Below are positions 1-29,303 of a stretch of DNA of 64,000 bases, one piece after another. The position numbers and the translations under genes are program-made. The DNA is from Botryllus schlosseri (taxonomy: Eukaryota). Below the pieces are notes generated by a model. That model did no database searches. It saw only the letters and a list, made by a program, of their open reading frames with translations, and had not been told where the DNA came from. The stretch lies in contig CM119371.1 of the NCBI GenBank assembly GCA_051294905.1, forward strand, positions 7,628,001 to 7,692,000. Direction: 5' to 3'. Within the stretch, counting starts at the first letter, position 1. Every line of letters starts with the position of its first letter.

Positions 1-3000
1 TTATCAAAAATGTTATAGTACCGCATCGGAATCCATTCGCGGATGTACCAAAGGTAAATCCAGATAATCCAAAATGAAATATTTGGACTTTGACAAACAT
101 GACTACCAACTGTGATCCAGTCACATTTCAAGATCATACTTTGAAACAATCCTTGAAACTTACAACTCTATTCACGACTGAGTTTTCCGTTTATCAAATA
201 GAGTTTCAGTAAATACTATCGCTATGGTGTCGCTATATTTTAATGTATAGAATCAATCAATGAAATAACACCTGTTGTAAATATTTCTAACTTGACAACC
301 ACTTGTCCATACCGCGATCGACTTGTGACGCGATGAGTTAAATCGGAATATTTCAATCTATTTGTCGAAACCTTGAACAAACTATCAGGTTATTTTTTGT
401 TGTAATCGAGTGAACGGAATTAGTAATACGTCTCAACATTTTAACATCTTGCCACCAACAAAAGAGTAAAATACAAAAACCTTGTCAAGTCAATCCGTTT
501 GTAACTCACCGAACCAAAGCAAAAAGTGTCCATGCGAAAAGTAGACAAGACTACACCAGTAATCACTACAATCCAAAATCCATAGCAAGTTCGGTTTTAG
601 GCGTATACCACCAACTCGTCTTTTTATTTGTTCAACTGTAAAAGTCGTTACTATTCTGTAAGATAAAGTAATTACTACTCGGTATATTTTATAAACCAAA
701 GTAAATACTACTCGGTGTCTGGTTTGAGATTAACATATTACATTTGAGTATACCGGATTTGAATGGCTGACCAACGTAGTTGAGAATTTATTTCTTACAA
801 TCAAACGCCGGTGTTACATCGAATGGTATCATACTGTAAACATAAGGATTGACACATTGATTTGATATATGAGATTTTGTAATGTTCGACCACGTCTTGA
901 TTATTAAATTATTCACGATAATTAGACCCGGTGTTGTGGTAAAGGTTATTAGAAAATATCACTTTTGACATCGAGCACCAGTCGAAGTGGGTGAACAATA
1001 CTTAATCCTTTCAGTGACTCCCTGTTGTACGTGCTAAATGTAAAACATTACGAGGTTAAACTCTAAGACTTTGATCAGCACAAGAGCAATTTGGACTATC
1101 TTTACTGGCTGTAACCTATTCTACTAGACAAAACTCGCAGCATTAATAAAATCAAAATATGTGCTACACTGAAATCTACAAAATGTGTTTGTATTGTTGC
1201 TAGTAGCGATCATGCATTATCATTTGAATCTTCTAAAGTAATTGTAATGATAAAACCAAACTACTCAAAGTCATTACCAACACAAAAAACGATTTCTATG
1301 ATATTCGTCAAACGCATCATACCCCAGTATGCAGAAATTATTTGTAGAGTGCATACCAACAAAGAAATCAGGAACACAACCAACACCGAAAATGATAAAT
1401 GCGTTTCGTGCTACTATTGATACAAGTTCATTTCTATCAGGTGAAATAAACGCCATCACAAAACTCAGAGCATGCAAAGGTCTTGATTGATATGAATTTC
1501 GATTTGTGTCTTATGATACCGGCAAGCATTTTAGAAATATTATGATTCGTTAAACCAAAGTCGTATGTCCGATTAATAATTGATTGGAAACTTGATCACG
1601 TACCTCGATCATTACAGAAGATTATAACACCATTGTCGGACAATCTTTTACAAAAGGATCGAAACCAAGTAACCCAAAGTCGTTGCCGTCGCATAAACAA
1701 TTTGTACGACGTTTGATAAATGTACCCGATACTTTGGTGTACTAGAAATATTTGTAAAACACACTCTGGTAAAGAAATCGAAAAGATATCCTACACCTAA
1801 ATCTGATAAAACCATTTTACACTTTTTGTTCGTCAGTAGTATCCATTTGAATTTTTCCATTTCCTCTCGTCAAAGTAGATGTAATCATAGTCGCTAAAGA
1901 ACTCACTTGGATGTGTTTGAATTCTAGACATAGTTATGATTTACTCGACGCAAGACCCAAGAACAACAGTAGTTTACAGCCGTGCACACATATCCAAAAT
2001 ATCGCACACTCCGCTATTCCTAAAGTACAAACACCCGATACAAAATATTACTTGTTGTGTTGTTGCGGCATCATCTTCACAATATCACCATTTGGTTTGT
2101 GTCAATTAGTTACTTTGTATGTTACCCCACAACTCTTACGAAAGTACGAAGGGTATTAACATCGCACTAAGTAATTAACTTTACTCGATATTCTCGCATT
2201 ACGAAACTAAAGAATGGTTGGTTAGACTCTACAAACTGTTTCGATATCACAAGACCTTTATTGTCTGAATGGGTGTTCATGTATCTTAATATTCAAATAG
2301 TTCAACACAAAACTAGTACTAACAGAAACATCACAGAGTTGTTTACACAAAAGTTTGTATATGCGCACAGTATGCGAATACCATGTGTAAGTCCAGCACA
2401 ATTGCGGTATCCATCCGAGTTTAGTTAACACAAATTTATTACAACGGAGTCACGTAAACTTTCGTGAAAGAAAAGCATACTCACTCCCAGAGGGTTATGT
2501 CAATACCATAGCAGTACCCCAACAACAAAGTACATATGTTTCTAGTCACGGTCCTTACATCTTTCACATAGATCAATCTACTTTGCTAACGAAAAGTGTT
2601 GAGTCATCACATGATCGCTCTCACAACAAAACAGCTAGTAGATATTATCATTCAAAATATTCCTAACCCTTTACACACCAGTGACAAATCATACAACGAA
2701 TATGCTTTGTGGGTCGAATTGTTGTTCAGTGTCAAGTCTACCTGTTGAAACGTACATTAAACAGCGCAATCCAATTAAAACCACGAATCTATTTTCATTT
2801 CGTCACATACAGAAAAATAAATTTAATTTCCCAAAACATACTTGTAACCAATCGCTTTCATTAAACACACAACACTATAATAGTATTTACTTTCTACAAC
2901 ATAGACATTCCGGTGTAGTCAAGAAATATTTTTAATAATCAAAATCATCGACTTCTGTTTACGGTGTTAGTGTGTGCATGTCATACATGTGGGCTCGTGT

Positions 3001-4569
3001 TAAAATGGACACGACACGACTGACTGTAAGGAGATAGAAGTCTATCGCATAGATTTACATGTGGTCTTCGCTACGGTTTCAAAAAACGAATCATCTCTTT
3101 TGCATTGATCTAGACCGAGCAAGTTAGTTAATGACCATGGTTGTGTTTGTCATATGTGAATGATAGGGTTACTGGCAAATCTACATACAACAATCTTCTG
3201 ACGATCATAATAACAATTTCATTTTCCGCCCTTCATAATTGTACAACTCGGTAACTACGTTTAACAAGACCAATCACACTACCAGCGTTGAACACAAGAT
3301 ACCTACCCAAGTAAAAATATCATTCTAGTTTGGACAACTGACGTTTACCTGTGTAAAATTATCATTTTCACTTGGAGGTCCACCGTTACCTAACTAAAAT
3401 ACCATTGTCCTTTGAAAATCTGGCGTTTACCCAGTGTAACAATACATTTTCACATGGGGGTCCATCGTTTCCCAGAGTAACAAACCCCTTTTCCTTTGGA
3501 AATCTATTTTTTTCCGTGGGTAACAAATCTTTTTCACTTGCAAATATATTTTTTCCTCGGGTAACAAACCTTTTTCACTTGCAAATATTTTTTTTCTCTT
3601 GGTAACAAACCTTTTTCACTTGGAAATATATTTTTTCTCTTGGTAACAAACCTTTTTCACTTGGAAATATATTTTTTCCCTGAGCAACAAACCATTTTCA
3701 CTTGGTGGGTCGTCGTTTACCTTAGTAAAAATATCATTTTCCTTTGGAGATCCGGCGTTTACCAGTGTAACAATACATTTTCTCTTGGTCATCTAGCTTT
3801 TCCTAGAGTAACAAAACCATTTTCATTTTGAAATCTGACAAACACACCTGACAATTTGGTATTTGTTGTATTGACGATAGTTTGAAATAGATTACAACGA
3901 ACAGTGACGGAAATATACACGGAGTTACAGAGTATACCTCCATCAGTCGTATCACATCAATATCATCGGTTAACCACATACAATATACTCTTGTACAAAG
4001 AAATGTATGTTTCGGAAAATTGGACAATAGGCTTCGATAGTTCTGTGATGTCCGGGTTCGTGCTTTGGATTTTCCAGATGTCGAAATGTCTGAATAAAAC
4101 ACCTCCTCGACGATGGTTGGTATGTGGATAACGGTGTTCGGAAAACGGTTGGATTTATGTTACCCATCGTGATAACAACTCCAGGTCGAGTTTTCCCCCC
4201 TGCATGTTTACTATATTGTATCTTTATTGGTTAGTGTATGTCTCGACATTCAGTTTGAAATCGGAAACCCTGATAAAGTACGTAACCGGATCCGGATACC
4301 AACTCTGAATCGATAAACCAATGAACAATATTCAAAGTAAACATGTTACATTCCACGAAAAAATACCATCCAGACATACGTCGCGCTTGTTTGCCCACAA
4401 CAGTATACGCGTAAATGGAGGTGTGTGACATTGCATGCAATGTGTTGGTATACAAACATCGGGGAGTAAGCCTTCGATCCACAGACATTATCATAGCCGG
4501 TAATTTTGATGTAGATCGAATGTCACCCGATAACAATACCAATAAGCCACATTGCAATGACTCTGAGTC
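1..4569. repeat. Left arm of giant inverted repeat (probably extends beyond window start)
   Basis: Base 1 pairs with 10076. Mirrored ORFs confirm it (490-699/9378-9587, 1648-1860/8217-8429, 3372-3605/6455-6688). Inner boundary ...attgcaatgactctgagtc (4569) pairs with gactcagagtcattgcaat (5492). Confidence 0.97.
3300..3830 (+). repeat. Minisatellite, ~39-40-bp unit (GGTAACAAACCTTTTTCACTTGGAAATATATTTTTTCTCTT-like)
   Basis: Near-identical units at 3500-3700, degenerating outward. Confidence 0.9.
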
Positions 4570-5491
4570 CGCGCCATTACATCGATATTTCGACACCGTT
4601 CACTGATTTATTCGATGGTGTTATCGTGTTGTAACATTACAAGATAGTCATGATCCTATCTGTAGACGGACCACCCAGATCAATTGGATACATCGGTCAA
4701 TATCCATCGTGTTGTCGACACCGAAGTTTTCTGCTGAGACTACAGCGTTTGATCTAGGTGAACTATCGAAGTACGGTGCTCGAAATGATTCCAATCAGTC
4801 TTTCAGTCACGATGCATGGATGTCGCTACTCCCACATAACGACTCCGGATAAATATCGTGCATATGTCGGACTGATATTGTGATCCAATAAGGTATGTTT
4901 CTGTGGAATGAAGACTGCAATCGTACACCACAATAGAACACTACCTCGTGATTTCACACGCAATCATAAAACACACTTTCGTAAGGGTCTAGCTCGTCCG
5001 GTGACATTTCGAAACGGTCGTCACCACAAGAGATCGGGGTTGGTCTCGTCATATCGGAGCATTTTGAAACGACATCGTCACAAGTCTATTGACGTCGATT
5101 CAGTTGGTCATGTCAATCCGTTTCACAATCCACCGTTTTTCCACTCCCCGCACCATAGTGTTACGACACAGACAAGAAGCGTCGGTGGAAATAATAAAAC
5201 ACGGAAGGGACACTTTGGTGTTATTTGACATGGATTTTACACCAGATGAACCTCACATTCGAGCGATACATTGGAATGGTGCTTGTATTATTGATGTAGA
5301 AGGAACAGAAATGTATCGATTTATTGGTTTCGTACGTATCCAACAAAAATCTGGGTATATGATTGTGCATGGTTCGCATATTTGACTGTGAACGCTCTAT
5401 TGGTATATGCTGTATAGTTCACTTTCACCGTCGTGCGAATAACCCATGTTATGGTTCGGTGTTTGTGTGTCTGTATGTCCTGCTTCAGATT
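4570..5491. other. Unique 922-bp spacer of the palindrome
   Basis: Arm complementarity stops at 4569/5492; the intervening sequence is not self-complementary. Confidence 0.9.
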
Positions 5492-8400
5492 GACTCAGAG
5501 TCATTGCAATGGGGCTTAATGGTATTGTTATCGGGTGACATTCGATCTGCATCAAAATTACCGGCTACGATAATGTCTGTGGATCGAAGGCTTACTCCCC
5601 GATGTTTGTATACCAACACATTGCATGCAATGTCACACACCTCCATTTACGCGTATACTGTTGTGGGCAAACAAGCGCGACGTATGTCTGGATGGTATTT
5701 TTTCGTGGAATGTAACATGTTTACTTTGAATATTGTTCATTGGTTTATCGATTCAGAGTTGGTATCCGGATCCGGTTACGTACTTTATCAGGGTTTCCGA
5801 TTTCAAACTGAATGTCGAGACATACACTAACCAATAAAGATACAATATAGTAAACATGCAGGGGGAAAACTCGACCTGGAGTTGTTATCACGATGGGTAA
5901 CATAAATCCAACCGTTTTCCGAACACCGTTATCCACATACCAACCATCGTCGAGGAGGTGTTTTATTCAGACATTTCGACATCTGGAAAATCCAAAGCAC
6001 GAACCCGGACATCACAGAACTATCGAAGCCTATTGTCCAATTTTCCGAAACATACATTTCTTTGTACAAGAGTATATTGTATGTGGTTAACCGATGATAT
6101 TGATGTGATACGACTGATGGAGGTATACTCTGTAACTCCGTGTATATTTCCGTCACTGTTCGTTGTAATCTATTTCAAACTATCGTCAATACAACAAATA
6201 CCAAATTGTCAGGTGTGTTTGTCAGATTTCAAAATGAAAATGGTTTTGTTACTCTAGGAAAAGCTAGATGACCAAGAGAAAATGTATTGTTACACTGGTA
6301 AACGCCGGATCTCCAAAGGAAAATGATATTTTTACTAAGGTAAACGACGACCCACCAAGTGAAAATGGTTTGTTGCTCAGGGAAAAAATATATTTCCAAG
6401 TGAAAAAGGTTTGTTACCAAGAGAAAAAATATATTTCCAAGTGAAAAAGGTTTGTTACCAAGAGAAAAAAAATATTTGCAAGTGAAAAAGGTTTGTTACC
6501 CGAGGAAAAAATATATTTGCAAGTGAAAAAGATTTGTTACCCACGGAAAAAAATAGATTTCCAAAGGAAAAGGGGTTTGTTACTCTGGGAAACGATGGAC
6601 CCCCATGTGAAAATGTATTGTTACACTGGGTAAACGCCAGATTTTCAAAGGACAATGGTATTTTAGTTAGGTAACGGTGGACCTCCAAGTGAAAATGATA
6701 ATTTTACACAGGTAAACGTCAGTTGTCCAAACTAGAATGATATTTTTACTTGGGTAGGTATCTTGTGTTCAACGCTGGTAGTGTGATTGGTCTTGTTAAA
6801 CGTAGTTACCGAGTTGTACAATTATGAAGGGCGGAAAATGAAATTGTTATTATGATCGTCAGAAGATTGTTGTATGTAGATTTGCCAGTAACCCTATCAT
6901 TCACATATGACAAACACAACCATGGTCATTAACTAACTTGCTCGGTCTAGATCAATGCAAAAGAGATGATTCGTTTTTTGAAACCGTAGCGAAGACCACA
7001 TGTAAATCTATGCGATAGACTTCTATCTCCTTACAGTCAGTCGTGTCGTGTCCATTTTAACACGAGCCCACATGTATGACATGCACACACTAACACCGTA
7101 AACAGAAGTCGATGATTTTGATTATTAAAAATATTTCTTGACTACACCGGAATGTCTATGTTGTAGAAAGTAAATACTATTATAGTGTTGTGTGTTTAAT
7201 GAAAGCGATTGGTTACAAGTATGTTTTGGGAAATTAAATTTATTTTTCTGTATGTGACAGTTTGCGAGGAAATGAAAATAGATTCGTGGTTTTAATTTGA
7301 TTGTGGCTGTGTTGTTTTAATGTACGTTTCAACAGGTAGACTTGACACTGAACAACAATTCGACCCACAAAACATATTCGTTGTATGATTTGTTACTGGT
7401 GTGTAAAGGGTTAGGAATATTTTGAATGATAATATCTACTAGCTGTTTTGTTGTGAGAGCGATCATGTGATGACTCAACACTTTTCGTTAGCAAAGTAGA
7501 TTGATCTATGTGAAAGATGTAAGGACCGTGACTAGAAACATATGTACTTTGTTGTTGGGGTACTGCTATGGTATTGACATAACCCTCTGGGAGTGAGTAT
7601 GCTTTTCTTTCACGAAAGTTTACGTGACTCCGTTGTAATAAATTTGTGTTAACTAAACTCGGATGGATACCGCAATTGTGCTGGACTTACACATGGTATT
7701 CGCATACTGTGCGCATATACAAACTTTTGTGTAAACAACTCTGTGATGTTTCTGTTAGTACTAGTTTTGTGTTGAACTATTTGAATATTAAGATACATGA
7801 ACACCCATTCAGACAATAAAGGTCTTGTGATATCGAAACAGTTTGTAGAGTCTAACCAACCATTCTTTAGTTTCGTAATGCGAGAATATCGAGTAAAGTT
7901 AATTACTTAGTGCGATGTTAATATCCTTCGTACTTTCGTAAGAGTTGTGGGGTAACATACAAAGTAACTAATTGACACAAACCAAATGGTGATATTGTGA
8001 AGATGATGCCGCAACAACACAACAAGTAATATTTTGTATCGGGTGTTTTTACTTTAGGAATAGCGGAGTGTGCGATATTTTGGATATGTGTGCACGGCTG
8101 TAAACTACGGTTGTTCTTGGGTCTTGCGTCGAGTAAATCATAACTATGTCTAGAATTCAAACACATCCAAGTGAGTTCTTTAGCGACTATGATTACATCT
8201 ACTTTGACGAGAGGAAATGGAAAAATTCAAATGGATACTACTGACGAACAAAAAGTGTAAAATGGTTTTATCAGATTTAGGTGTAGGATATCTTTTCGAT
8301 TTCTTTACCAGAGTGTGTTTTACAAATATTTCTAGTACACCAAAGTATAGGGTACATTTATCAAACGTCGTACAAATTGTTTATGCGACGGCAACGACTT

Positions 8401-10076
8401 TGGGTTACTTGGTTTCGATCCTTTTGTAAAAGATTGTCCGACAATGGTGTTATAATCTTCTGTAATGATCGAGGTACGTGATCAAGTTTCCAATCAATTA
8501 TTAATCGGACATACGACTTTGGTTTAACGAATCATAATATTTCTAAAATGCTTGCCGGTATCATAAGACACAAATCGAAATTCATATCAATCAAGACCTT
8601 TGCATGCTCTGAGTTTTGTGATGGCGTTTATTTCACCTGATAGAAATGAACTTGTATCAATAGTAGCACGAAACGCATTTATCATTTTCGGTGTTGGTTG
8701 TGTTCCTGATTTCTTTGTTGGTATGCACTCTACAAATAATTTCTGCATACTGGGGTATGATGCGTTTGACGAATATCATAGAAATCGTTTTTTGTGTTGG
8801 TAATGACTTTGAGTAGTTTGGTTTTATCATTACAATTACTTTAGAAGATTCAAATGATAATGCATGATCGCTACTAGCAACAATACAAACACATTTTGTA
8901 GATTTCAGTGTAGCACATATTTTGATTTTATTAATGCTGCGAGTTTTGTCTAGTAGAATAGGTTACAGCCAGTAAAGATAGTCCAAATTGCTCTTGTGCT
9001 GATCAAAGTCTTAGAGTTTAACCTCGTAATGTTTTACATTTAGCACGTACAACAGGGAGTCACTGAAAGGATTAAGTATTGTTCACCCACTTCGACTGGT
9101 GCTCGATGTCAAAAGTGATATTTTCTAATAACCTTTACCACAACACCGGGTCTAATTATCGTGAATAATTTAATAATCAAGACGTGGTCGAACATTACAA
9201 AATCTCATATATCAAATCAATGTGTCAATCCTTATGTTTACAGTATGATACCATTCGATGTAACACCGGCGTTTGATTGTAAGAAATAAATTCTCAACTA
9301 CGTTGGTCAGCCATTCAAATCCGGTATACTCAAATGTAATATGTTAATCTCAAACCAGACACCGAGTAGTATTTACTTTGGTTTATAAAATATACCGAGT
9401 AGTAATTACTTTATCTTACAGAATAGTAACGACTTTTACAGTTGAACAAATAAAAAGACGAGTTGGTGGTATACGCCTAAAACCGAACTTGCTATGGATT
9501 TTGGATTGTAGTGATTACTGGTGTAGTCTTGTCTACTTTTCGCATGGACACTTTTTGCTTTGGTTCGGTGAGTTACAAACGGATTGACTTGACAAGGTTT
9601 TTGTATTTTACTCTTTTGTTGGTGGCAAGATGTTAAAATGTTGAGACGTATTACTAATTCCGTTCACTCGATTACAACAAAAAATAACCTGATAGTTTGT
9701 TCAAGGTTTCGACAAATAGATTGAAATATTCCGATTTAACTCATCGCGTCACAAGTCGATCGCGGTATGGACAAGTGGTTGTCAAGTTAGAAATATTTAC
9801 AACAGGTGTTATTTCATTGATTGATTCTATACATTAAAATATAGCGACACCATAGCGATAGTATTTACTGAAACTCTATTTGATAAACGGAAAACTCAGT
9901 CGTGAATAGAGTTGTAAGTTTCAAGGATTGTTTCAAAGTATGATCTTGAAATGTGACTGGATCACAGTTGGTAGTCATGTTTGTCAAAGTCCAAATATTT
10001 CATTTTGGATTATCTGGATTTACCTTTGGTACATCCGCGAATGGATTCCGATGCGGTACTATAACATTTTTGATAA
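5492..10076. repeat. Right arm of giant inverted repeat
   Basis: Reverse complement of 1-4569 with scattered SNPs, a net 17-bp indel near 7250-7320 and a 1-bp homopolymer difference near 5861. Confidence 0.97.
6230..6760 (-). repeat. Mirror copy of the ~39-40-bp minisatellite
   Basis: Reverse complement of 3300-3830. Confidence 0.9.
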
Positions 10077-10554
10077 TAATGACTCAAGGATTTTCAATCA
10101 ACAATACTGGAATTTTTTGGTAATGCTAGAGTTGCCAAATGATTAGTTGCGTGTTTTTGTTAAGTGTTTGATTTCAAGTTAATAAAGACAATAACTGTGT
10201 AATGCACATACTTGTGATTCTTGATTCTTGTATTGATTCTATAAGTGTGAAAACAGTGGCGCGGAATGTGCGAATAATTCGATGCGGCTGAAAGTCGGCG
10301 TCAGTAATATTCGGGTTACGTTCGATTCAACAAAAACGCGTTAAGGGATTTGTCAAAGGATTAGAGTTGTACCGATTTAAAACATTCAGATACGAATCGA
10401 CTTGATTTGTGTAGTGAGTTTCATTTCAAGTTGATAAACTAACACATTGATTGAATATTTTCATGGATCTTATCACGCAACTAAAGTCAGCCACTATTCT
10501 GGAGGTGTGAAACATATAGCGATCGCGGGCGAGTGACAAATTGTTGGTTTTCGA

Positions 10555-11095
10555 ATCACCGTCTGCGACGGCTCTGTGACAAACTTATTACCGAAATATT
10601 ACCTTGTGAGCGGGTATGAGAGATTGCTATATGTCTGAAGCATTATCCGGTGAGTGGTCGTTGGATTTTAAAATTATATCACACCCTTTTGAATAAGCGT
10701 TCACTTCACAAAGGATTAGGGTTAGAGCGGAAATAAGTGACAATTTGTCGCTATTCAAGTTACCGACACTGGCGGTCTGTTATTCGTTACTTAATAAATC
10801 TTACGAGTGAAATCAAGTTCCGTATCAAACTATCAAAATATTACCTTGTGAGCGATTGGTATGTATGTAACATCAAGTCGCGAATGATGGTTATGTCTGG
10901 GACATTATCTTGTGAGTGATCGTAGCATTTTACAAATATTTCACACCTTTTTTGAAGTGTTAGTTTGTGTGGACGGTTATTGTTGGTGTTGGAAGCGCCG
11001 TCTACGCCGGCTCTGTGACAAAATAATTACCAAAATATAATTCTGCGAGTGATTCCAAGATTTTATAAACTATTCCACACCTTTTTTGCTGAAAG
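10555..11095 (+). repeat. About three degenerate direct repeats
   Basis: Recurrent cggctctgtgacaaa (two copies), aaatattaccttgtgagcg and cacacctttt motifs near 10560-10700, 10830-10955 and 11000-11090. Confidence 0.7.
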
Positions 11096-11840
11096 TACGA
11101 ATCTCCGCCGCGTCCATAAGAATAACGCTAACCGCATGCCAACGCACCCATAAGACATAAGAGTCGCATGCCAACACGAGTATCCAATACGACATGCGAG
11201 AGATGTCTATACCCGAAAGGGCGATTCACGACCGCACCCATAAGAACACATGGCGAGTCACCACAGATCCGTAAGAATACATGACAGGCGAATCACCGCC
11301 GCCGCCTATACCCGAAGTACGAATCACGACCGCGTCCATAAGAATCCATTACGAATCACGGGAAAGTACGAATCACGACCGCGAGTTTTCATTACGATTC
11401 AGGAATAGTGTAATAATCGATAGTAGCGGCTGGACGAGAAATAATTCGGTGCGCAGGTCATTCGAAATATAGGTCGCACGCGTAATCCTATTGCAAGCCG
11501 CGTTTCCGTTGGTGCGGTTATTGTTGGTGACTCGTACATATTCAACACCGCGCGAGAGATGCCTATACTCGAAAGTGCGACATGCCGCCACGAGTTTCCA
11601 TGCGATGTGCGAGAGATGCCTATATCTAAAAGTGCGACATGCCACCACGAGTTTTCCATGCGATGTGCGAGAGATGCCTATATCTAAAAGTGCGACATGC
11701 GAGCGCACCCATAAGAACCAATGGCGATGTGCGACCGAGAGGGGGGTCTAAAAGCGCGATATGCCACCCCGGGTTTCCAGGCGATATGCCACCCCGCCCA
11801 TAAGAGCCCCATGCAAAAAACACCAAGTCACGACCGATCT
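11096..11840 (+). repeat. GC-richer subterminal repeat array
   Basis: Recurrent CCATAAGA, CACGACCG and GAGATGCCTATA..AAAGTGCGACATGC motifs; ~58-bp unit repeated at 11555-11700. Confidence 0.8.
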
Positions 11841-11851
11841 ACTATACTACT

Positions 11852-12919
11852 CATGTATTGCTATCAATTTTCATCCTGTCTCTGTTCACGTAATCTGATT
11901 TAGCGGTAGAGCTGAGTGAGGTGTGTTTGAAAAGGTATAGGTCCCCTCAATAGTAATTAAACATCTCCGGGGGTATACCCGTTGACAGGAACGTAACAGC
12001 ACTTCGTCAGGACCCCGGGCTCCTATAAGGTGATAAACTGACCCAGCATCACGTTGTCCGCTTTTACCACGAAATTAAAGTTGTACTGTTTAGTGAGACA
12101 GCGCGACGCGCGAATATTTCGATAGTTCATGATAAAATCGGTGAATAAGATCGGGAATTGCATGGTTGTCCTCTTTGCCCACGTAATCAGACTTACCGGT
12201 AGAGCTGAGTGAGAGGTGTCTTTGAAACTGCAGACCCCGTAATATTAAACATTTTCAGGTGGGCTTGACTTAGGTATGACTTCTTTACATGGTGTTATTT
12301 TGTGACCTCCCGTCTGCTATATCAAAAAATGTAGAATTGCCCAAATCCAATAAACTGAAAGATCACACGATTTCAGATAGGTATTTCTTCACTGGCATAT
12401 AATTTTCTTTCCTGCGGGATGGTATTTGTCTTGTGAGGTTCAGATTGCCAAGACAAGAACATTCGGCGCCGGTCATTTAGGCGCCTATATGGACAATTAA
12501 ACCTATATGTATTTTGTATATGTCACGAAGTTTTTGGTATTTCGAAGTTTTTGGTTAGCCTAAAAGCAGTCCTTTACGGCCAAGGCTTTCTCGTTGCCGA
12601 TCGTTCTGACACACTTCTTGGAGTCACATGTTACATGGCCTAAAACTTCATATGTCATGGTGCGTTGTGGTGCGGTCATGGCCAATGCTGATATGCCCAT
12701 TTCTATAAATTTTGCGTATTTTTTGGGGGGGAAGAGTACCCAATAATCAAGATATGTGGCGCATTAAAATCGCGCCAGGCGCGAAAACTTTTTGAAAAAG
12801 TTGCATAAATTTTCAAAAAAATACTCTGTTATTTATGCTAATTCACGAAGTAATTTTGGTCCCCCATCGAGCTCGGCCTCCTCAATTGAGGGGTTTGGGG
12901 TGCGGCAGCTACGGCCCTG
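11852..12919. mobile_element. Non-autonomous TIR element 'family H' (hAT-like), left part cut off by the palindromic element
   Basis: Aligns with ~59630-60709 and ~32030-32547; right TIR ...GCGGCAGCTACGGCCCTG. Confidence 0.75.
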
Positions 12920-13632
12920 ACTATAGGACTACCAATTATGGTGCTTTTAGCCGGCTCAGCAGTATGCATCTGGGCGTATTCAACCGTGAGTCACGTGTTG
13001 CACATCTAGTTATCACAGGGTTACCATACGTCCTCTTTTAAGATGATTTGTGCTCTTTTTTGATTTTTTAAAAGTGTCCTCGGTGGACGGCCAAATGTCT
13101 TATTTTTTGAGATTTTGTCTTTTTTTTTGAGGATTTTGGTTACATATAGGGCCAAATTCGACTGATATACATTAAGTCAGCACTGTAGGAACGCTATGGC
13201 TGCTATTTCGGGAGCTGGACCGGAAAGTTTACCTTTTTTCAGGCAACCACCTGTTAATGTAAAAGAAAAACTGTATTTTCCGGGAGTTGAGCCTCTTTTT
13301 CTTTTTTAGTCAAGCGACCACGAAGTGGGAAAAGGTTACCATTTTCTCAGGATTTTCCTCCAGTTTTGAAAGTTATCAATACCTATTTATATCTATAGCT
13401 ACTGCTCGTTGAACTGGAAAGTTAGGGCACATTGCATTGAAACAGCAGTGACGTAACGTTAGCAGTCTATACTCACAATTTTCCTGCGATTCTATAATTA
13501 AAAACTACAGAGGTCAAGCCAAGCAAGAGTATTTTATAAATATAAATTTTATTTTTTGTCATAAATCAATTTCCTAATATATTTTGGGGGGCCGCAAGAA
13601 GGCTCTCTGGGGGCCGCGCCTGGGAATCACTG
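12920..13632. mobile_element. Right half of hAT-type element (same family as 58964-60977) with a nested GGGTTACCATA MITE fragment
   Basis: 12920-13010 matches ~59285-59372 and 13380-13632 matches ~60715-60977; ends GGGAATCACTG. Confidence 0.6.
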
Positions 13633-15064
13633 GTTTAGAGTGTTATCGAAATATGGACCCAAAGCAGTTAATCGCGAAAACGCAAATGCAAAACCATCAT
13701 AAGCGCAGGTTCTACGGCCAAAACGATAATTCACACAAAATCCGTGGCTGCACTGCACTGTATAACTTCTGAATTAAACACCCCGTGCCACCAAAAAACC
13801 CCAGGTGGTGATTTAGGCTAATATTAATGAACCTAATTCCGACATCTGCGTTTACGTCTAAATGTTTTGTATCCATAACAACGCACACGCAGGGCTAATA
13901 TCTGCGCACTCTACGGCTTAAATAAAGGCAGCACACAAATATGCTAACTTATATAGTCGCTCATTGCGAATAAAGGCGTTGTTAGAATAGAACCTCTATG
14001 GTCCGTAAAACAGCTGACTTTGAACAATAACAGCAACAACAATGTGCTTAGACTGAAATTAGTTTCATCATTTTGAAATGCTTTACCAAGCGTTATTCCG
14101 AAATATCACATCATACATAAGTCTTGGGCCGCAAAATGTGACATCGCGGCCGCGTGTTCGCGACCCCTGAGCTAGAGAATGAAGTATTCAAGTGGAAAAC
14201 CAGGGTACGAATTTGGATGGAAGAAACATTTGGCATCAATTGACTGATACTGAGCGCAAGCGTTGTCTTTTGCCTTCCGTACTGCGAATGCCTTTTCACT
14301 CGGGAGTACTACGTTTCGAATAAACATATAGCCTACCACTATTTGGATATGTCGATCTGATTCAATGAATAGTCAATTGTGAAGCAAATCCTAGTATTAA
14401 TGCGTTTATTGATGCATTCGCACGTTCGCTTCTGCGTAACTCATGCATATTAACCAACAGAACAGCACGAGAGAATTGAAAAAGTGAAGCACATTTCAAG
14501 ATGAGTACACCAACTGAATTTCTTTCAGCGTGCTTGTACGATGAAGTGCTATTCATAATGCGGTAAAAAAGATGATGGTTTTGCAAACTTCATCATTTTA
14601 GCCAACTCAACAGCCAACATATGTGTTTTACATGTTCTGATCTGAATAAAGTTGACATCTCATCCAAGTGACGCGTGCAAAATTATCGTTAGAAAATGCC
14701 AACCCAAATCCTTGCTACTTGTTGGTATATGATACACATCGATATGACCATTTGTTAGCTGACATCAGATATTTTGGCCGCCAGAATAAACCGTCCAAGT
14801 AGTTCGTATGCTTGGTAAAATAAGTCGCTAGCGGTGGTCAAAACAATATGAAAGAATGAAAGCTTTACGATGTCAAATATTTGTATTAGTAGTACACACG
14901 CAATACCACCACTTTTCATTTATCGATCGTTCTCGTTCTGCAAATGGGTCTTCAAGTTGAAAAGTCTGTAAAGAGTAGGACATCTCGTTGACCAGACTAT
15001 CGAACATAACGCGATGCACTTGTCGCTCTCAGTTATTGATGGCGGTAACGAGTAATCTGAAAGC

Positions 15065-15475
15065 AATTGAATAGTATCTTCATAGTGAAATGAACCCGCG
15101 TATTTTCGGCTGACACTCGTCAAGGGTAATCGTCAGCAACTAGTAGAGAATTCAAAAGAACAGCGTATATCAACAATCGTAACACAAAATATGACGTCAC
15201 CAGCACGGAATGTCGCATACGAGAGCGTCTAATGTACTATTTTTAGATGATACACGAACTCTTTTTGTTGACACAGCCACTTCGTGTATCATTTAAAAAT
15301 AGTACATTAAACGCTCTCGTATTCGACATTCCGTACTGGTGACGTCATATTTTGTGTTACGATTGTTGATATACGCAGTTCTTTTGAATTCTCTACTAGT
15401 TGTTGACGATTACCCCTGACGAGTGTCAGCCGAAAATATTCGGGTTCATTTCAATATGAATACACTATTCAACTG
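15065..15475. mobile_element. ~410-bp fold-back (~195-bp arms, ~22-bp loop), Penelope-like terminal-repeat fragments
   Basis: Arms are reverse complements; each carries a hammerhead-like motif; related to 30047-30395. Confidence 0.6.
15412..15445 (+). ncRNA. Minimal type-I hammerhead ribozyme motif
   Basis: accc-CTGACGA-gtgtcagcc-GAAA-atat-TC-gggt: core boxes intact, helix I ACCC/GGGT, palindromic helix III AATATT. Confidence 0.6.
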
Positions 15476-15899
15476 TATATTGAAGTTCTGTACCTCCAAG
15501 AAGCTGTTCAATCTGAAAGCACTATACATCATTTCTTCCTACAAGCGTTACTCAAGCTTGAGATTATAATTGCACCGGCTGGATTCAATCAAAATCGCCA
15601 CAATTACACAATAAATGAATTGTCGGTAACACACCTAACCAAAGTTCGGAAGATGATAAATAACGTCGTGGTGGATAGTAGAGCAGTCGTGTTTTTAATA
15701 TCCAGATATAAATTTTGGTCGCGATTAAACCAGAGCGGTTGTTTAATATGTCTGTGATATTTGCTGAATTTCTCTCGACAAAAGAATTTGTCTATAGTTT
15801 GTTATTGCACGTGGTTTGATTATGTTACATGGCTTGGTCATGAAAATTTTCCAATGTTGTGTTGCACATATTTGTTTGATGACGTATAGGAGTTATCAG

Positions 15900-16778
15900 T
15901 AGGGCGTTTTTTTTGACATGTCAAAATTTGTTAAAATTTTGTCAAAATTGTAGCGTTTGGTCTAAATGTGTCAAAATTGTTCATTGAGTCAAAAATTGTT
16001 TGACGTCTGCATTTCGTTTTTATCGTAGATTTTGCACTGTCGGTGAACGTATCATTTGATATTTCACAGTTTCAGCCTACTTTATAGGTCTACCGTTGTT
16101 AACGGCTAATTGTCTGCTCATTGTGAATCATAAACGGTCAAATAAATCAAATAGGTGGACATGGTATTATGGTCAACGTACCGCAATATCGTAACTGAAG
16201 AAAGAATTCTTGGGCATTGCATCATTCCTATATTGAGAAGTGCATGATGAAAGATTGTGATGTAGACAACATTGTCAGAATGAAACAACACGGTGTGTCA
16301 CCAGCAGTGTACGCTTAACTCAAGTGTTGTCAGCCAGAACCTGCTTCTGTTGAACGTCCTTGGCAAGTTTCTGAGTAAGGACAAGCACTTTCTACCCAAG
16401 AATGTAGGAAAGTATCCCTCGTTGCATTATAATTTTTTTAAATTATTTCCACCATGATACGTATTGTAACCACTGGAATTCTTCATAGGAACAGATTTCG
16501 TTAAAATATTGTTTTTTTTTCATGTGAAAAGTTGACCGTTTCTAAGCCCAAAATGTTTCTCTCAGGCCAAACGTTAGGACAAACGCCGTTAGGACAGCCA
16601 GTTCCAACCAGAAATGAAGATAAGTGGTACAATTTTACCATTATGAGGAAAAACACCTAATTTGCATACGTTAGGTCAAAATTTGGTAAAAATTCAGTTT
16701 TGTTTAGATTAAAAAAGTCAAAATTTTAATTTTGCAGGTCACAATTTTCCCTTTTTTGTGGTAAAAATAACCGCCCTA
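15900..16778 (+). mobile_element. hAT-like deletion derivative with decayed transposase C-terminus
   Basis: TIR TAGGGCG/CGCCCTA, degenerate 8-bp TSD gttatcag/gctatcac; remnant CCQPEPASVER..LSKDKHFLPKNVGKY resembles the hAT dimerisation region. Other copies at 22678-23400 and 47656-52440. Confidence 0.65.
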
Positions 16779-17533
16779 GCTATCACATATCAGATTCTTT
16801 ATAACTGTAATTGGTCTGGGGAATCCTCAGGCAGTAATATACGCAACTTAGAATTTTTTAATGCGCATAATCTCCAGAAATAAATCGAACTGCTTTCGAA
16901 GTTGTGAAAGAACGGCCTAATAATAGTAGAGTTTAACGGCTTTTCATACCGTTGGGATGGATTCATCTATATGGGTGTAACACGTGCGAGTGCGGGACTG
17001 TTATAGACACAGATATTTCGGAATCGACCCTTATCGCGCCAGGAATGTGTAGACATGAAGTTTTGATCATCATGCAGCACAAGGGGCTTGGGCTGCAAAG
17101 ACCGAGGGCGATAAAACCGTAAACCAAAATGACCCGCGCTGGTTGCCCAAAACCTTCCATATGGATATGACTATTCGTCGGATTAGTCAGCACTGAATAG
17201 TTCCGTCTTTGGAATATGAGCCTCGCACAGGAAATTATTGCACCCAATTTAAACTACTACTTTTTACCGTAGGTCACGGTTTACCAACATGCCTCATCAA
17301 GTAATTACCAAAAATGTCCAAAGTGTGAAATCAATCGCTAATTTCGATGATCCATGTTTCACCAGCAGGCTTTAAACGTCACGCAAATTTCGTGAAAAAA
17401 GGTTTGAGACCTTGATATACGCACAGAGTTCAATAGAAAAGAGTTGTGCCTAAATAACAATATACGAGAGAAAGTTCATGCGACATCAACCTCTCTAGAC
17501 CAATAACGTTTTTTTTGTGATGAATCAAGTTAC

Positions 17534-17763
17534 CAGACGTGGTCGAATTAGTCACCGTCACTACTCAAGTAAAACTAGATGAAACGCCGGAATTTCTACT
17601 CAAGTAGAATTAGGAGTGGTGGGCCACAAGTATATAAGTAAGTAAGTAGGTATTATACGCTTATTTTTGCCCAAAAAACTGAAAACTATCAGATAGTGTG
17701 AGTAGGCAAAATCTTCTTACAGTACATAAAAAAGTAGAAGTACTTCATTACTGACCACCTCTG
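17534..17763. mobile_element. MITE with 8-bp TSD
   Basis: TIR CAGACGTGGTC/GACCACCTCTG, perfect TSD CAAGTTAC; empty site in the paralogous intron at 63420-63427. Confidence 0.85.
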
Positions 17764-18117
17764 CAAGTTACGTAGGATTACGTTTCGTACAACAAATTGT
17801 CGGCAGCTTCCCTACTTTATGCATGCCCGTAAGCCCCGCCATACTAATTTACTAACATCAGAAATGCATTCATTTCAATGTGTGACGCTTGGATCGCGAG
17901 ATGCCAACAAGACTCAGATTTGAGTCTTGGTTTAATAAGTTCAAGAACCACTGGTTTAGCAGATGCCCGTGTCGCTTCGAACATAATTACACCAAACCAT
18001 GTTTCGATTATTAGCGTCCGGAAATTAGATTAAACAGCTGCCTATTTCATACTTTAAATTTTGAAAGAATTTAGTAAACGGTAACCTTCTAACACTCCGA
18101 TCCTCGGTATTCTACAG

Positions 18118-18218
18118 ATCCACTCGGGTCGAATAACAATCCAGCTCAAAGCTGTAAGGAATTGAAGAGACATGATCCTAAACTCAGAAATGGACTGTAC
18201 TACATCGTCGACAAGGAG
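18118..18218 (+). CDS. itln: Intelectin A, coding exon 2
   Basis: ag/gt bounded, 101 bp, phase 1-0: DPLGSNNNPAQSCKELKRHDPKLRNGLYYIVDKE, matching the intelectin SCKE..GLY start of the fibrinogen-like domain. Confidence 0.9.
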
Positions 18219-19146
18219 GTAAGTATTGGTCTGATAACTTCACAATTGTTGTGAAGTAGCAATGTGAATACGCAATCGTCATTTCCATCTTGTTTCTTAA
18301 CGATATGTTTGTATAACAAGAGAGCCATCTCGACTAACGTCTCTGAAACGCTTCAAGCTTGCTATAGCTTTCACGTGCCGAATATGAGGTCACATTGACA
18401 TATTGATTATATATATCTTTCGCTGACGACGCACAGATTCGTCATGCAAAAAAGTACATTTATATTCTCTCACAATCCTTTTGCTATCGCTGAGGACCCT
18501 GCGTGACGGGACCCGTTGCGGAGATTGTGTTTTGATCATACCTGATGCATTCATATGGTTGGGATACAACAAAGTAAACCCAGTACGTCTGTAATTAAAA
18601 CGAAGGAGCTCTACACAGCATATGCCCCTAAGATTCTGAAGGAAAGAAGTCGTTGATTTTTGTGGAGCAGTGCGTGGAAAGAAACTGGTGCATAAACTTG
18701 GCTATTTCTAGGTGTATCGTATTTTGCATATTCAACATACGAAATCTTTTGAGTATTGAGTCATTGATGAAACATGCACGCCCTGTTGGCGCCCAAGCGG
18801 TGATGTTCGCCTGATGAAAGTACATTCTTATTCGCAACACTCCGGCAATTAATGCCATGCCGTATAACTTTGTTCGGAACAAAGACCACCATAAGAACAT
18901 TAGGAATTCAGAGCGATAGGAATCTCATAAGGTAGTGGAACAGATCACACCCCCGGGATAATTTGGCATTAAAGGACTCAAGGCCCTTGTGACTCAACAA
19001 TCATGATCTACGTCAAAGTAAATGGTTCGATTTATCTAATTATCCAATGCGTTTTAATAAATTCTCAAACCATATCCAAATTCTGTCATGTAAACATGAA
19101 ACTTCATCGGAGAACAAGAAACACTGGTTGGCGTGTATTCTTTCAG

Positions 19147-19451
19147 GGAGACGTCTTCCAAACTTACTGCGACATGGCAGTTGGTGGTGGAGGGTGGACT
19201 CTTGTCGCTTCGATCCACGAAAACAACATAAAAGGACGGTGTACTGCAGGTGATCGCTGGTCTAGCGAGCAAGGCGTCAGTGCTCACCATCCCCACGGAG
19301 ACGGATTTTGGGAAAATCGCGCGACGCACGGGAGAGCAATATCAGCCACCAACGACGACTACAAAAATTCAGCCTATTTCAACATGTACGCTGGCGACAT
19401 TATGATCTGGCATGTTCCGAATGGCACGCCTCTTCACGACTTCGAAAACAG
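19147..19451 (+). CDS. itln: Intelectin A, coding exon 3
   Basis: 305 bp, ag/gt: GDVFQTYCDMAVGGGGWTLVASIHENN..GDRWSSEQG..DDYKN..IWHVPN, hallmark intelectin motifs. Confidence 0.96.
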
Positions 19452-19593
19452 GTGGGCAAGCATGGTGATATAACAAAATAAATGAAATTTTAGTGATTCA
19501 CGCTTGTGCCCCTTTTAGAAGTATAACTTTCGAATCGACTCACTATAAATATCATCATGGTCTTATAGTGACGGGAAATTTCGATGAAATTCC

Positions 19594-20194
19594 CAGGGTT
19601 GTAACCAAGTCACAAGGCTCCGAATCACAAGTCAATCTCACTTTTATAGTTTTGACTCGAGTCAAGTCGAGTCATTTCAATTCACCCCCGAGTTAAGTCC
19701 GAGTCCAAGTCAGCGAGCAGAGGGTCGAGTCCGAGTCAGGGAGTCATGACTCGAGTCCGACTCCAAGTCATTGTGTAGACTGCTCAGTTCCCAGCTAAAG
19801 TCTTGGTAAACCCACTTTTTATGACTCTGTTTCGTGATATCGAATGTTTCGCATCTATGATATACCAATTTTCCTCACTTTTAGCAGTTTCTGGTGGCAT
19901 ATTCAAGTACCAGTACCAAAAGACGAAATCCCAATAGTGTGTTGGCTTCGGAATTACGATGAAATGTCGGTCTTGGCCGTCTGAGTCTCGAGTCATATAA
20001 CTTGGACCGAGTCAGGGTTGCAATGACTCGACTTGACGGGAGTCATTTTCTCAAATTACGGAAATGACTCGATTCGACTCGAGTCAATCTGCGTAATAAC
20101 TAGAGTCCAAGTCGAGTCATTTCCGTATTTTGAAAAAATGACTCGAGTCAAGTCGAGTCATTAGAAAATCGTGACTCGGGTCATTACAACCCTG
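19594..20194. mobile_element. hAT-type MITE rich in GACTCGAGTC
   Basis: TIR CAGGGTTGTAA/TTACAACCCTG, TSD gaaattcc/gcaattcc; second copy 49117-49659. Confidence 0.85.
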
Positions 20195-21670: not shown

Positions 21671-22040
21671 TAGGGTTACCATATTTTGGAATCCGGGAAG
21701 TAGGACAATTTTTCAAAATCATAAAAGTTAGTTTACCGAAACTGAAAACAGCTGATTTTGAAATATATTACCAGATTTTTACGTTACTTTTGAGGTGTTA
21801 ACTAAAAATATGGTGATCACTATGATTCGACTCTCAGATTACTTGCTCTAACGTCCGCATGACCTATTTTGCGTCATTTATGCCGATTTTCAGTTGAATT
21901 TGTCCATTGTCCTAGCTGTAAAATCTGGAAAGGATGACGAATCGCCGAAGAGGAGGTCATTTATTCGTCTTCGGAGGACATTTCTGATTCCCCTAAAAAG
22001 GAGGCGAAATCCTTCCAAATGAGGTCGTATGGTAACCCTA
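21671..22040. mobile_element. MITE (TAGGGTTACCATA TIR family)
   Basis: TIRs at both ends, TSD cctaactt/cctcactt. Confidence 0.85.
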
Positions 22041-22251
22041 CCTCACTTTAACCCGTGTCTGACCGTTTATAGCTGCATGGAGACGGGAAGCGTGCATAAA
22101 CTTCCGACACTTGACAAGAGACTGTAGATTCGATCTTTCCCTGATCCACACACCACATGCTTAACGATTGTATTTCATAAAGCACGAATCAGATGCGCAG
22201 CGATGGATCCAAAAAGAAAAAACGAATCTTAAAAGCGCTTTTCATTTTCAG

Positions 22252-22474
22252 GGCGCTCATGAAATACTACACCAACAACGGATTCCTACCTACCTTCGGT
22301 GGCAATCTTGCAACTTTGTACTCTGATCATTACCAAATAAGACACGGGCAATATGTGAAAAACGTTGACAACGGTCCAGCTATACCAGTGGTGTGGGCAA
22401 AAGGAAACTCGGACTATTATTTGAGTATGCTGGGTCCGAGATCAAGAGCTGAAGTTGATGGCGGATATGTGCAA
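22252..22474 (+). CDS. itln: Intelectin A, coding exon 4
   Basis: 223 bp, phase 2-0: ALMKYYTNNGFLPTFGGNL..DNGPAIPVVW..GGYVQ. Confidence 0.95.
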
Positions 22475-22677
22475 GTAAATTATTTCCATCCTGAGTCTTC
22501 TAACCAGTGGAAACTTCCTCTATTTATACCTGCATTCAGTCGACTGTTCAGTGTTCACGCATAGCATCAATTTGTCTATATCCATTTGTTAACGTAATCA
22601 AGAACGACGACACGGAGATTATAGATAATTTGACACCTGACGAAAGTAAATTCAAATTGTGTCAGAATGGATATAAG

Positions 22678-23400
22678 TAGGGCGATTTAATTGGACATAT
22701 CAATATAAGTCAAATTTGTAGCGTTAGGTCACAAAATTGTCAAAAGTATTTACAAAGTAAAATTTTCTGCAACCTGCTTTTCGTTTGTACAGTAGATGTT
22801 TGCACTGTCGGTGAACTTATCATTTGACATTTCAAAGCTTGTAGCCTACCTTATAGGCCTACCGTTGTAGACGGCTCATTGTCTGCTCATTGTGAACCAT
22901 AAACAGTCAAATGAAACAAATAGGTTGACATGATGTTATGATCAACGTACCGCAATGTTTTGACTGAAGCAAGACTGCGTGGGCATTGGTTCTCATATCA
23001 AGCAGCGCACGATGAAAAATAGTGATGTAGACAACATTGTCAGAACGAAGTAACACGGCGTGTCAGTGTTTCCACCGAAAAACTGCTGTTGCTGAACGTT
23101 CCTTCTCCATTCTTGGCAAGCTACTAATTAAGGACAGACATTTCCTACTCGATATTGTTGGAAAGTAGGCCCTATCTGTCGCTGGACTACAACAAATTTT
23201 GATTATTTCTAACATAATGCGTGATGTAACTACTCGAATTCTTCCCAGGTCCAGACTTCATTAAAATAAAGTTTTTTCATGTTAAAATTGGTCAGTTTTT
23301 TAGTCAAAAAAGTTTACATACATGAGGTCAAAATTTGGTCGAAATCAAGCTTTTAAAGGTCAAAATCTTCCAATTTTAGGTAGAAAAATAGGCCTAGTTA
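22678..23400 (+). mobile_element. Second copy of TAGGGCG hAT-like derivative
   Basis: Aligns with 15900-16778. Confidence 0.6.
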
Positions 23401-28864: not shown

Positions 28865-29303
28865 CCCTAATGTTGAATGATATGTGTTCATTTTTCCCTA
28901 TGTGACACATGCGGTGGAATTGCAAAATGCTACGACATATTCACATTCCACTCATCATAAGCTATATTTAAAGAATTGATTGCGATCTTTCATCATGTTT
29001 CATTGCTCATTGTGAAAGATGAAAATGATAGTGCACAGGAGACATATGGCAATTATATTTATTTCCCTGATATATTTATTCGATAATTGGACGCATATTT
29101 CTCGCTGGTATGGTTTCAACTACACGATGTAATATTACGAGGTTCGGTTACGCAAAATCATAACGCTGAAAGGTTTGACTGCTTAAACGATGCAGAAATA
29201 GATGATATATTGCTGACATAAACAGTTTCCTAACCTCCTCCGAACCTTCTATTGGAGAGGCTCTAATGAATCTGGTGGGAAATGATGAAGTAAAAGATTA
29301 TAC

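What the first reader, a model, noticed from the sequence alone, without database searches (positions are those of the whole stretch)
1..11851. Giant (>10 kb) palindrome ending in a Maverick/Polinton-like terminus
Seen: arms of at least 4.57 kb, nearly identical, around a 922-bp spacer. The right side runs through subterminal repeats to ACTATACTACT, then switches into the middle of family H (compare 59625-59680). Known: Mavericks end in AGT-type repeats, make ~6-bp TSDs, and their TIRs are usually a small part of the element. Inference: a ~13.6-kb non-autonomous derivative that is almost all inverted repeat (arms ~6.3 kb), possibly a snap-back replication product that was integrated, like a defective-interfering genome. 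If transcribed it would form a multi-kb hairpin.
Basis: partly seen in the sequence, partly recalled or inferred. Interest (0 to 1): 0.82.

Follow-up and report, generated by a model that had tools for sequence, protein, structure and literature searches.

The report
Young non-coding palindrome of repeat DNA
A real-looking, recent inverted duplication of non-coding, high-copy repeat DNA that runs on one side into a transposon-like end resembling those of Maverick elements, but whose Maverick origin and mirror-image left end could not be checked.

Summary
The palindrome is confirmed. Arms 1-4569 and 5492-10076 are 99.35% alike (12 substitutions, 5 indels) around a unique 922-bp spacer, and the window start cuts the left arm. 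Spacer, right arm and the 1.77 kb up to 11851 show no Pfam relic in any of six read-through frames. Every part belongs to very high-copy repeat families in two runs of the host species and one of a second species. The host is probably an arthropod. At 11851/11852 the sequence breaks into an old repeat H that is continuous in 4 of 4 other units. The last six bases, ACTACT, equal the commonest 3' end-motif of vertebrate Mavericks. Both arms share rare letters that nearly all other family copies lack, and four of the 12 substitutions lie in the innermost 77 bp. I read it as a young fold-back inverted duplication, most likely made in place. An integrated long-TIR or Maverick-derived snap-back element remains possible. 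The left terminus, target-site duplication and arm length beyond 4.57 kb are untestable here: no upstream sequence or genome is held.

The parts
1..4569 (.). Left arm of the palindrome, cut by the window start
   Evidence: reverse complement of 5492-10076, 99.35% over 4586 columns
4570..5491 (.). Unique 922-bp spacer (loop); non-coding and itself high-copy in the genome
   Evidence: no internal symmetry; summed depth about 1e5 in X1; no Pfam
5492..10076 (.). Right arm of the palindrome
4493..4569 (.). Innermost 77 bp of the left arm (mirror 5492-5568), holding 4 of the 12 arm-to-arm substitutions. Candidate pre-existing short inverted repeat or error-prone start of fold-back synthesis
   Evidence: binomial P = 3.6e-5
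3468..3824 (.). 41-bp tandem repeat array inside the left arm (mirror about 6232-6756)
10077..11851 (+). Continuation of the right side to the element end. GC 0.43 and CpG o/e 1.46 against 0.36 and 1.1 in the arms. Whether it is mirrored upstream is unknown
   Evidence: (highest depth of the stretch in X5)
11093..11851 (+). Subterminal direct repeats: a 20-mer in 4 copies, a CCCATAAGA-containing motif in 4 copies, and a 58-bp unit in about 3 copies
11846..11851 (+). Terminal ACTACT = (ACT)2, the Maverick-type 3' end-motif
   Evidence: motif definition
11852..11857 (+). Unverified: the H copies read TATGTA or TATATA here
   Evidence: the left copy is not in the window
11853..18342 (+). Old copy of repeat H, collinear in blocks with 59634-63994 (77-82%), carrying later insertions and lacking about 64 bp of H's left end

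Best explanation
This is a genuine, evolutionarily young inverted duplication (palindrome) of non-coding, transposon-derived DNA, made by a fold-back or template-switch event. A broken or stalled 3' end paired with a short inverted sequence about 0.9 kb away and was extended, copying the neighbouring DNA in reverse. That leaves the 922-bp stretch between the pairing sites as a single-copy loop. I think it most likely happened in place in the chromosome, inside or next to a non-autonomous DNA transposon that had earlier inserted into an old H repeat and ends in ACTACT at 11851. Shown: the palindrome, the unique spacer, real differences between the arms, non-coding content, high copy number of every part, and the break in H. 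Inferred: the fold-back mechanism, formation in place, and that 11851 is a transposon terminus.
For: (1) The arms are 99.35% alike but differ by 12 substitutions and indels of 6, 1, 10 and 1 bp. The spacer is unique and asymmetric. (2) Of the 18 rows table 3 that fall in the right arm, 17 are at positions where both arms carry the same letter. In 12 of those 17 the other letter holds more than 94% of X1 depth. The arms are therefore each other's nearest relatives and were copied after this copy had diverged from its family. Only 40 of 440 rows were shown. (3) At 8049 the right arm has a private T while the left arm keeps the family letter, and X1 still holds the T (depth about 183), so two distinct arms exist in reads. 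(4) The window's own letters have depths of about 126-183 at 8049, 8098, 9056 and 9182, against 43-138 at three single-locus sites in the H flank. That fits one or a few loci. (5) Four of the 12 substitutions lie in the innermost 77 bp (P = 3.6e-5). This is what a pre-existing imperfect short inverted repeat, or error-prone synthesis at the priming site, would leave. (6) Human fold-back duplications show the same anatomy: a normal-copy spacer with short inverted sequences at its boundary (abstract of PMC3907307). (7) No coding relic was found.
Against: No sequence upstream of base 1 is available, so formation in place cannot be told from integration of a ready-made palindromic element. Logan contigs are only about 100-260 bp long in these repeats, so no independent data set confirms the long-range structure. 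Gene conversion between the arms of an old foldback element would also give arms that share private letters. Many contigs seem to cross both arm-spacer junctions (98 contigs at 4575 and 81 at 5480, each at least 28 letters from a contig end). That could mean the palindromic centre is a family feature. The ACTACT end matches a Maverick motif at a chance level of about 0.001, which favours an element-level reading for the right end at least.
Confidence: 0.45

Rival explanations
1. An integrated palindromic mobile element: a long-TIR (foldback-type) non-autonomous DNA transposon of about 13.6 kb with two identical ACTACT/AGTAGT termini. One form of this is the reader's idea: a snap-back, defective-interfering-like derivative of a Maverick/Polinton-type element, inserted as a unit into H with a 6-bp duplication.
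For: The right end breaks sharply inside H, which is continuous in 4 of 4 other units. H copies are only about 77% alike while the arms are 99.35% alike, so the younger sequence probably inserted into the older. The terminal ACTACT equals the commonest vertebrate Maverick 3' motif, at a chance level of about 0.001. Dense subterminal repeats fill the last 760 bp. The terminal region is the most abundant part in X5, as expected of transposon ends shared by deletion derivatives. Arms with internal tandem repeats recall foldback elements such as Tetris (abstract).
Against: No integrase, polymerase, capsid or any other Pfam relic in six frames of 4570-11851. Arms of at least 4.57 kb exceed reported Maverick TIRs: 46-1447 bp and 100-1500 bp. 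No second copy of any part of 4500-11851 occurs in the other 52 kb of the window. No AGTAGT-type partner terminus was found in the window (at most 3 mismatches). The window-specific letters suggest one locus. The left end and duplication were not seen. The motif comes from vertebrate elements, whereas this host is probably an arthropod.
Confidence: 0.3
2. An assembly or library artefact: a fold-back chimeric molecule or read, or a mis-join between two copies of a repeat, possibly at a contig end.
For: The structure lies at the window edge, and the window may start at a contig start (unknown). All sequences involved are high-copy repeats, which are hard to assemble. No independent long-range confirmation exists.
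Against: Missed-adapter and template-complement chimeras have no 922-bp unique spacer. The arms differ by 12 substitutions and by 6-bp and 10-bp indels, and the right-arm private T at 8049 is present in X1 contigs. The differences are clustered rather than spread like random errors.
Confidence: 0.1
3. An old member of a palindromic (foldback) repeat family whose arms are kept alike by gene conversion, so that the low arm divergence does not date the structure.
For: Many contigs appear to cross both spacer junctions (rows 4575 and 5480). Divergence is raised next to the spacer, where conversion tracts would end. Another small palindrome lies in the window at 15064-15475.
Against: Depth ratios of arm to spacer are inconsistent between runs: about 2 in X1, about 1 in X5, variable in X7. 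Unitigs end at branch points, so junction crossing is weakly measured. No second copy in the window.
Confidence: 0.15

Closest known systems
Fold-back inverted duplications with a single-copy spacer (Hermetz et al. 2014, PMC3907307; abstract read)
   Same: An inverted and a non-inverted copy around a normal-copy spacer that marks the fold-back loop. Short inverted sequence is expected at the spacer boundary; here the innermost 77 bp are the divergent part of the arms.
   Different: Those are megabase-scale human rearrangements with terminal deletions. This one is a kb-scale, fixed or segregating structure in repeat DNA of a probable arthropod, and its outer boundary is unknown.
Foldback transposons of insects: FB (recalled), Galileo (PMC4168063, search listing only) and Tetris (PMC4079207, abstract read)
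   Same: Non-coding, with very long inverted arms holding internal tandem repeats (41-bp array, subterminal repeats) around a middle piece. High-copy family context.
   Different: The arms here are at least 4.57 kb of mostly complex sequence. Two termini and a duplication were not seen. This exact structure seems to be a single locus.
Maverick/Polinton elements (PMC8097293 and PMC10748475, passages read; Kapitonov & Jurka 2006 recalled only, not held)
   Same: The 3' end ACTACT equals (ACT)2. The predicted size of about 13.6 kb falls in the 13-25 kb range.
   Different: No pPolB, integrase, capsid, protease or ATPase relic. The arms are far longer than reported TIRs. The family has thousands of copies. 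The left end is unseen.
Snap-back or inverted-duplication defective genomes of protein-primed linear replicons such as adenovirus incomplete particles and hairpin linear plasmids (recalled from memory; no paper read)
   Same: One genome end duplicated in reverse around a unique centre, giving two identical replication ends.
   Different: There is no evidence here of a viral or linear-plasmid parent and none of an extrachromosomal stage.
Hairpin-RNA (hpRNA) endo-siRNA loci of insects (recalled)
   Same: A long inverted repeat that would fold into a long double-stranded RNA if transcribed across the loop.
   Different: The one RNA run laid gave 534 mostly partial, 90-95%-alike reads over 9.5 kb. 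Small RNAs were not examined.

Membership tests
Maverick/Polinton | Encodes protein-primed DNA polymerase B and a retroviral-type integrase (plus capsid, protease, ATPase), or shows relics of them | tested here: not met
   0 Pfam families at E<=0.01 in six stop-read-through frames of 4570-11851. In 79 ORFs of at least 45 aa, only scattered weak matches at E 0.02-0.1, none to these families. 0 families at E<=0.001 in 69 ORFs of at least 85 aa in the rest of the window
Maverick/Polinton | End-motif 5'-(AGT)2//(ACT)2-3' or (AG)3//(CT)3 | tested here: inconclusive
   The right end 11846-11851 is ACTACT (motif). The left end lies outside the window
Maverick/Polinton | 6-bp (5-8 bp) target-site duplication | not testable with these tools
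   Only the right flank (CATGTA) is in the window. No genome is held
Maverick/Polinton | Terminal inverted repeats of about 0.05-1.5 kb | tested here: inconclusive
   The inverted arms are at least 4.57 kb, beyond the reported range. Whether they reach the terminus is unknown
Foldback-type transposon | Long inverted arms with internal tandem repeats and no coding capacity | tested here: met
Foldback-type transposon | Two matching termini flanked by a target-site duplication | not testable with these tools
   The left end is outside the window
Foldback-type transposon | Several genomic copies with the same arm-loop-arm layout | tested here: inconclusive
   No other copy in the window. Contigs are too short for layout, and the window-specific letters sit near single-locus depth
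Chromosomal fold-back inverted duplication | Inverted duplication around a single-copy spacer | tested here: met
Chromosomal fold-back inverted duplication | Short pre-existing inverted sequence at the spacer boundary | tested here: inconclusive
   4 of 12 substitutions fall in the innermost 77 bp, which fits an older imperfect inverted repeat.
hpRNA / siRNA-generating hairpin locus | Transcription through both arms and 21-nt small RNAs | not tested
   Only one cDNA run was laid, with very few reads. No small-RNA data were used

The most novel reading that the evidence does not exclude
The structure is an integrated snap-back (defective-interfering-like) derivative of a protein-primed, Maverick-type element. 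One end of a non-autonomous, thousands-of-copies family with (AGT)2/(ACT)2 termini was copied back on itself around a 922-bp loop. The result is a 13.6-kb element that is almost entirely inverted repeat (arms about 6.3 kb), and it then integrated into repeat H with a 6-bp duplication. This would also imply a very abundant non-coding Maverick-mobilised family in an arthropod.
Probability: 0.12. Interest if true: 0.75.

Novelty: new member of a known kind. Interest (0 to 1): 0.36.

Why it matters
As a local fold-back duplication in a repeat desert it is ordinary. It does illustrate how multi-kb palindromes arise in transposon-rich arthropod DNA, and it is a potential source of long double-stranded RNA against thousands-of-copies repeat families. 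The one lead worth following is the end. A very abundant, non-coding family with dense subterminal repeats terminates in the exact (ACT)2 motif of Mavericks. If that family is mobilised by a Maverick-type element, it would be an unusually successful non-autonomous derivative of a virus-like transposon. The palindrome would then record a snap-back replication product captured in a genome.

Tried and rejected
No whole genome is held for the window, so upstream sequence, other copies and an autonomous partner could not be sought.

Rfam at gathering scores found 0 matches in the window. ARAGORN found 0 tRNAs in 1-20000.

Exact-pattern scans gave 0 matches in viral contigs for 2 patterns and 0 in metagenome contigs for 2 patterns. 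The scan of genome contigs gave 1 match, in a GC-rich Achromobacter record. It shares only 20-33 bases with the window and is a chance match.

Earlier findings of this scan: nothing by place, sequence, relatives or words.

A candidate short element 9365-11851 with an 8-bp inverted end (AGTAGTAT) was rejected. Its left flank (ending ACCG) does not repeat CATGTA, and arm sequence rather than H lies to its left.

Spacer as a nested insertion was rejected: it has no inverted ends and no duplicated flank. Spacer as a decayed palindrome centre was rejected.

LTR and Helitron readings of the end were considered. The TG...CA and CTRR rules, recalled from memory, fit poorly, and no coding relics support them.

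RNA: no listed holder run is on record as RNA. In the one RNA run laid, X24 (about 6% of the run read), 534 reads lay on 4000-13500. Of these, 524 lay only partly on it and 19 were at least 99% alike. Depth was 0-5 per bin in 4000-12000. This gives no support for transcription of the locus and is no proof of silence.

Kapitonov & Jurka 2006 could not be read. A search for non-autonomous Polinton or Maverick terms found 4 papers, none describing such families in arthropods.
Full report
OBSERVATION. The inverted repeat is real in the sequence. Arm 1-4569 matches the reverse complement of 5492-10076 at 99.35% over 4586 aligned columns. A base-by-base walk gives 12 substitutions and 5 indel events of 6, 1, 10, 1 and 1 bp. 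The 922 bp between the arms (4570-5491) are unique. Their alignment to their own reverse complement scores within 1.4 SD of 100 shuffles, and the only self-match is an 86-column stretch at 65%. The left arm ends at base 1 only because the window starts there, so 4.57 kb is a lower bound.

To the right of the mirrored part, 10077-11851 has a different composition: GC 0.43 and CpG o/e 1.46, against 0.36 and 1.1 in the arms. Its last 760 bp are packed with direct subterminal repeats: a 20-mer in 4 copies, a CCCATAAGA-containing motif in 4 copies, and a 58-bp unit in about 3 copies.

THE RIGHT END. The sequence ends ...CTACTATACTACT at 11851. From 11853 it matches repeat H (59634-60715, 76.8% over 1114 columns). 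In an alignment of five stretches, the four other H units (59560, 59890, 12075, 31955) all continue leftwards across this point, while the window sequence left of it is unrelated.

H is a long old element. 11853-18342 is collinear in blocks with 59634-63994 at 77-82%, with later insertions in both copies. Its own left end, shared by two copies, lies only about 64 bp left of the break. The H copy here therefore lacks about 64 bp.

The arms are 99.35% alike and H copies about 77% alike. The simplest reading is that the younger sequence inserted into H. A truncated H cannot be excluded. The boundary is uncertain by one base, because C at 11852 may belong to either side.

CONTENT. Nothing here codes. 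No ORF exceeds 155 aa in 1-13000. Among 79 ORFs of at least 45 aa from 4400-11900, the only Pfam matches up to E 0.1 are scattered weak ones (E 0.02-0.1), none to a transposon or virus family. Six frames of 4570-11851, read through stops as X, gave 0 families at E<=0.01. The rest of the window is equally empty: 69 ORFs of at least 85 aa gave 0 families at E<=0.001. One ORF had a sub-threshold zf-RVT match.

There are no Rfam families and no tRNAs. CpG is not depleted (o/e 1.06). The nearest protein-atlas clusters of one ORF are arthropod. The host is thus probably an arthropod with a large, repeat-rich genome. I did not try to name it.

COPY NUMBER. No genome is held. Of 24 public runs listed, 20 hold part of 4000-12000, from 11 studies and three organism labels. 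I laid four runs on 4000-13500. In X1, possibly the source sample, 204,765 short contigs matched at 90% or better. Summed word depth ran from 4e4 to 4e5 in every one of 30 bins: spacer, arms, terminal region and H alike.

An independent run of the same species (X5) and one of a second species (X7) also cover all 30 bins. Depth differs more than tenfold between bins. It is lowest at 8121-9388 and highest in X5 at 10023-11607. The contigs are only about 100-260 bp long, so they say nothing about long-range layout. No part of 4500-11851 recurs in the other 52 kb of the window.

WHAT THE ARMS SAY. Table 3 shows 40 of 440 differing sites. Eighteen of these fall in the right arm. At 17 of the 18 the two arms carry the same letter (compare). 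At 12 of those 17 the other letter holds more than 94% of the X1 depth. The arms are therefore each other's closest relatives, copied from one another after this copy had drifted from its family.

The one exception is 8049. The right arm has a private T, the left arm keeps the family letter, and X1 still holds the T at depth about 183. The two arms are thus distinct in reads, which argues against a simple chimeric-read artefact.

The window's own letter has depth about 126-183 at 8049, 8098, 9056 and 9182. At three single-locus sites in the H flank it is 43-138. This is a rough measure, but it fits one or a few loci and does not fit a transposing subfamily.

The differences are clustered. Four of the 12 substitutions lie in the innermost 77 bp of the arms (binomial P = 3.6e-5). 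A second patch at 2760-2801 holds three indels and two substitutions. Stretches of 1.7 kb are free of substitutions.

MECHANISM. The anatomy is that of a fold-back duplication: inverted copies around a unique loop, with the most divergent part of the arms next to the loop. In that process a 3' end pairs with a short inverted sequence nearby and is extended, and the stretch between the pairing sites stays single-copy. Human inverted duplications show a normal-copy spacer with short inverted sequences at its boundary (abstract of PMC3907307).

The divergent innermost 77 bp may be a pre-existing imperfect inverted repeat that guided the pairing. That would also explain why many family contigs seem to cross both arm-spacer junctions (rows 4575 and 5480). 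Alternatively it may reflect error-prone synthesis at the start of copying. These steps are inferred, not shown.

IN PLACE, OR AN INTEGRATED ELEMENT? The same fold-back could have happened in the chromosome or on a free copy of a mobile element that then integrated. Only the upstream sequence can tell them apart.

For an element:
- The sharp break in H.
- The subterminal repeats.
- The terminal ACTACT. Passages of PMC8097293 give 5'-(AGT)2//(ACT)2-3' as the commonest end-motif of vertebrate Mavericks, together with 6-bp duplications.
- ACTACT or CTCTCT end at 31 of 64,000 positions of the window's + strand, so a chance hit at one or two candidate positions is about 0.001.

Against a Maverick origin:
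- No gene relic in 7.3 kb measured from the end.
- Arms three or more times longer than reported TIRs: 46-1447 bp and 100-1500 bp.
- A family with thousands of copies.
- A motif defined in vertebrates.
- No partner terminus in the window.

I put formation in place at 0.45 and an integrated palindromic element at 0.30, of which a Maverick-derived one is about 0.12. An old foldback family member homogenised by gene conversion gets 0.15, which overlaps the element reading. An artefact gets 0.10.

ARTEFACT. A missed-adapter or template-complement chimera would have no 922-bp unique loop and identical arms. Here the arms differ by clustered substitutions and by 6-bp and 10-bp indels. I could not learn whether the window starts at a contig start, and no independent long-range evidence exists, so some risk remains.

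EXPRESSION. The multi-kb hairpin idea is untested. One cDNA run, with about 6% of it read, put 534 reads on the 9.5 kb. Of these, 524 lay only partly on it and 19 were at least 99% alike. Small RNAs were not examined.

VERDICT. Its core claims cannot be checked here: arms reaching both ends, a 6-bp duplication, and Maverick descent. The missing gene relics and the single-locus signal lean against them.

The finding is a young palindrome of repeat DNA, a new member of a known kind. It leaves one good lead: an abundant non-coding family with a Maverick-type end.

Noticed in passing
window 15064-15475: A small, near-perfect palindrome (arms 195 nt, 93% complementary, 22-nt loop; 90.8% over 412 columns by BLAST). 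It sits in a stretch that the 59-kb H copy lacks, and it looks like a foldback or MITE-type insertion.
   Followed up: partly
window 11853-18342 and 59570-63994: Repeat H is a long (at least 4.4 kb) old element. The two copies are collinear in five blocks at 77-82%, each with its own later insertions. It begins with two tandem units of about 300-330 bp.
   Followed up: partly
window 21859-24209 and 46954-53266: Two copies of another repeat, 84-97% alike in blocks, with partial third copies at 16074-16517 and inverted pieces at 29293-29534 and 40141-40323.
   Followed up: no
window 1-64000: The whole 64 kb has no Pfam-detectable coding sequence. ORFs of at least 85 aa in 11852-64000 and all six frames of 4570-11851 gave nothing. 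One ORF at 30665-31171 has a sub-threshold zf-RVT match (E 0.0015). CpG o/e is about 1.06, so the repeats show no methylation-type CpG loss.
   Followed up: partly
window 8666-8914: A 249-bp contig from the second species (run X7) matches this part of the right arm with 0 differences. The family is therefore shared nearly unchanged between two organism labels, by recent common ancestry or by transfer.
   Followed up: no
window 2760-2801 / 7259-7316: A 42-bp patch holds three of the five arm-to-arm indels (6, 1 and 10 bp) and two substitutions: a complex local mutation within otherwise identical arms.
   Followed up: no
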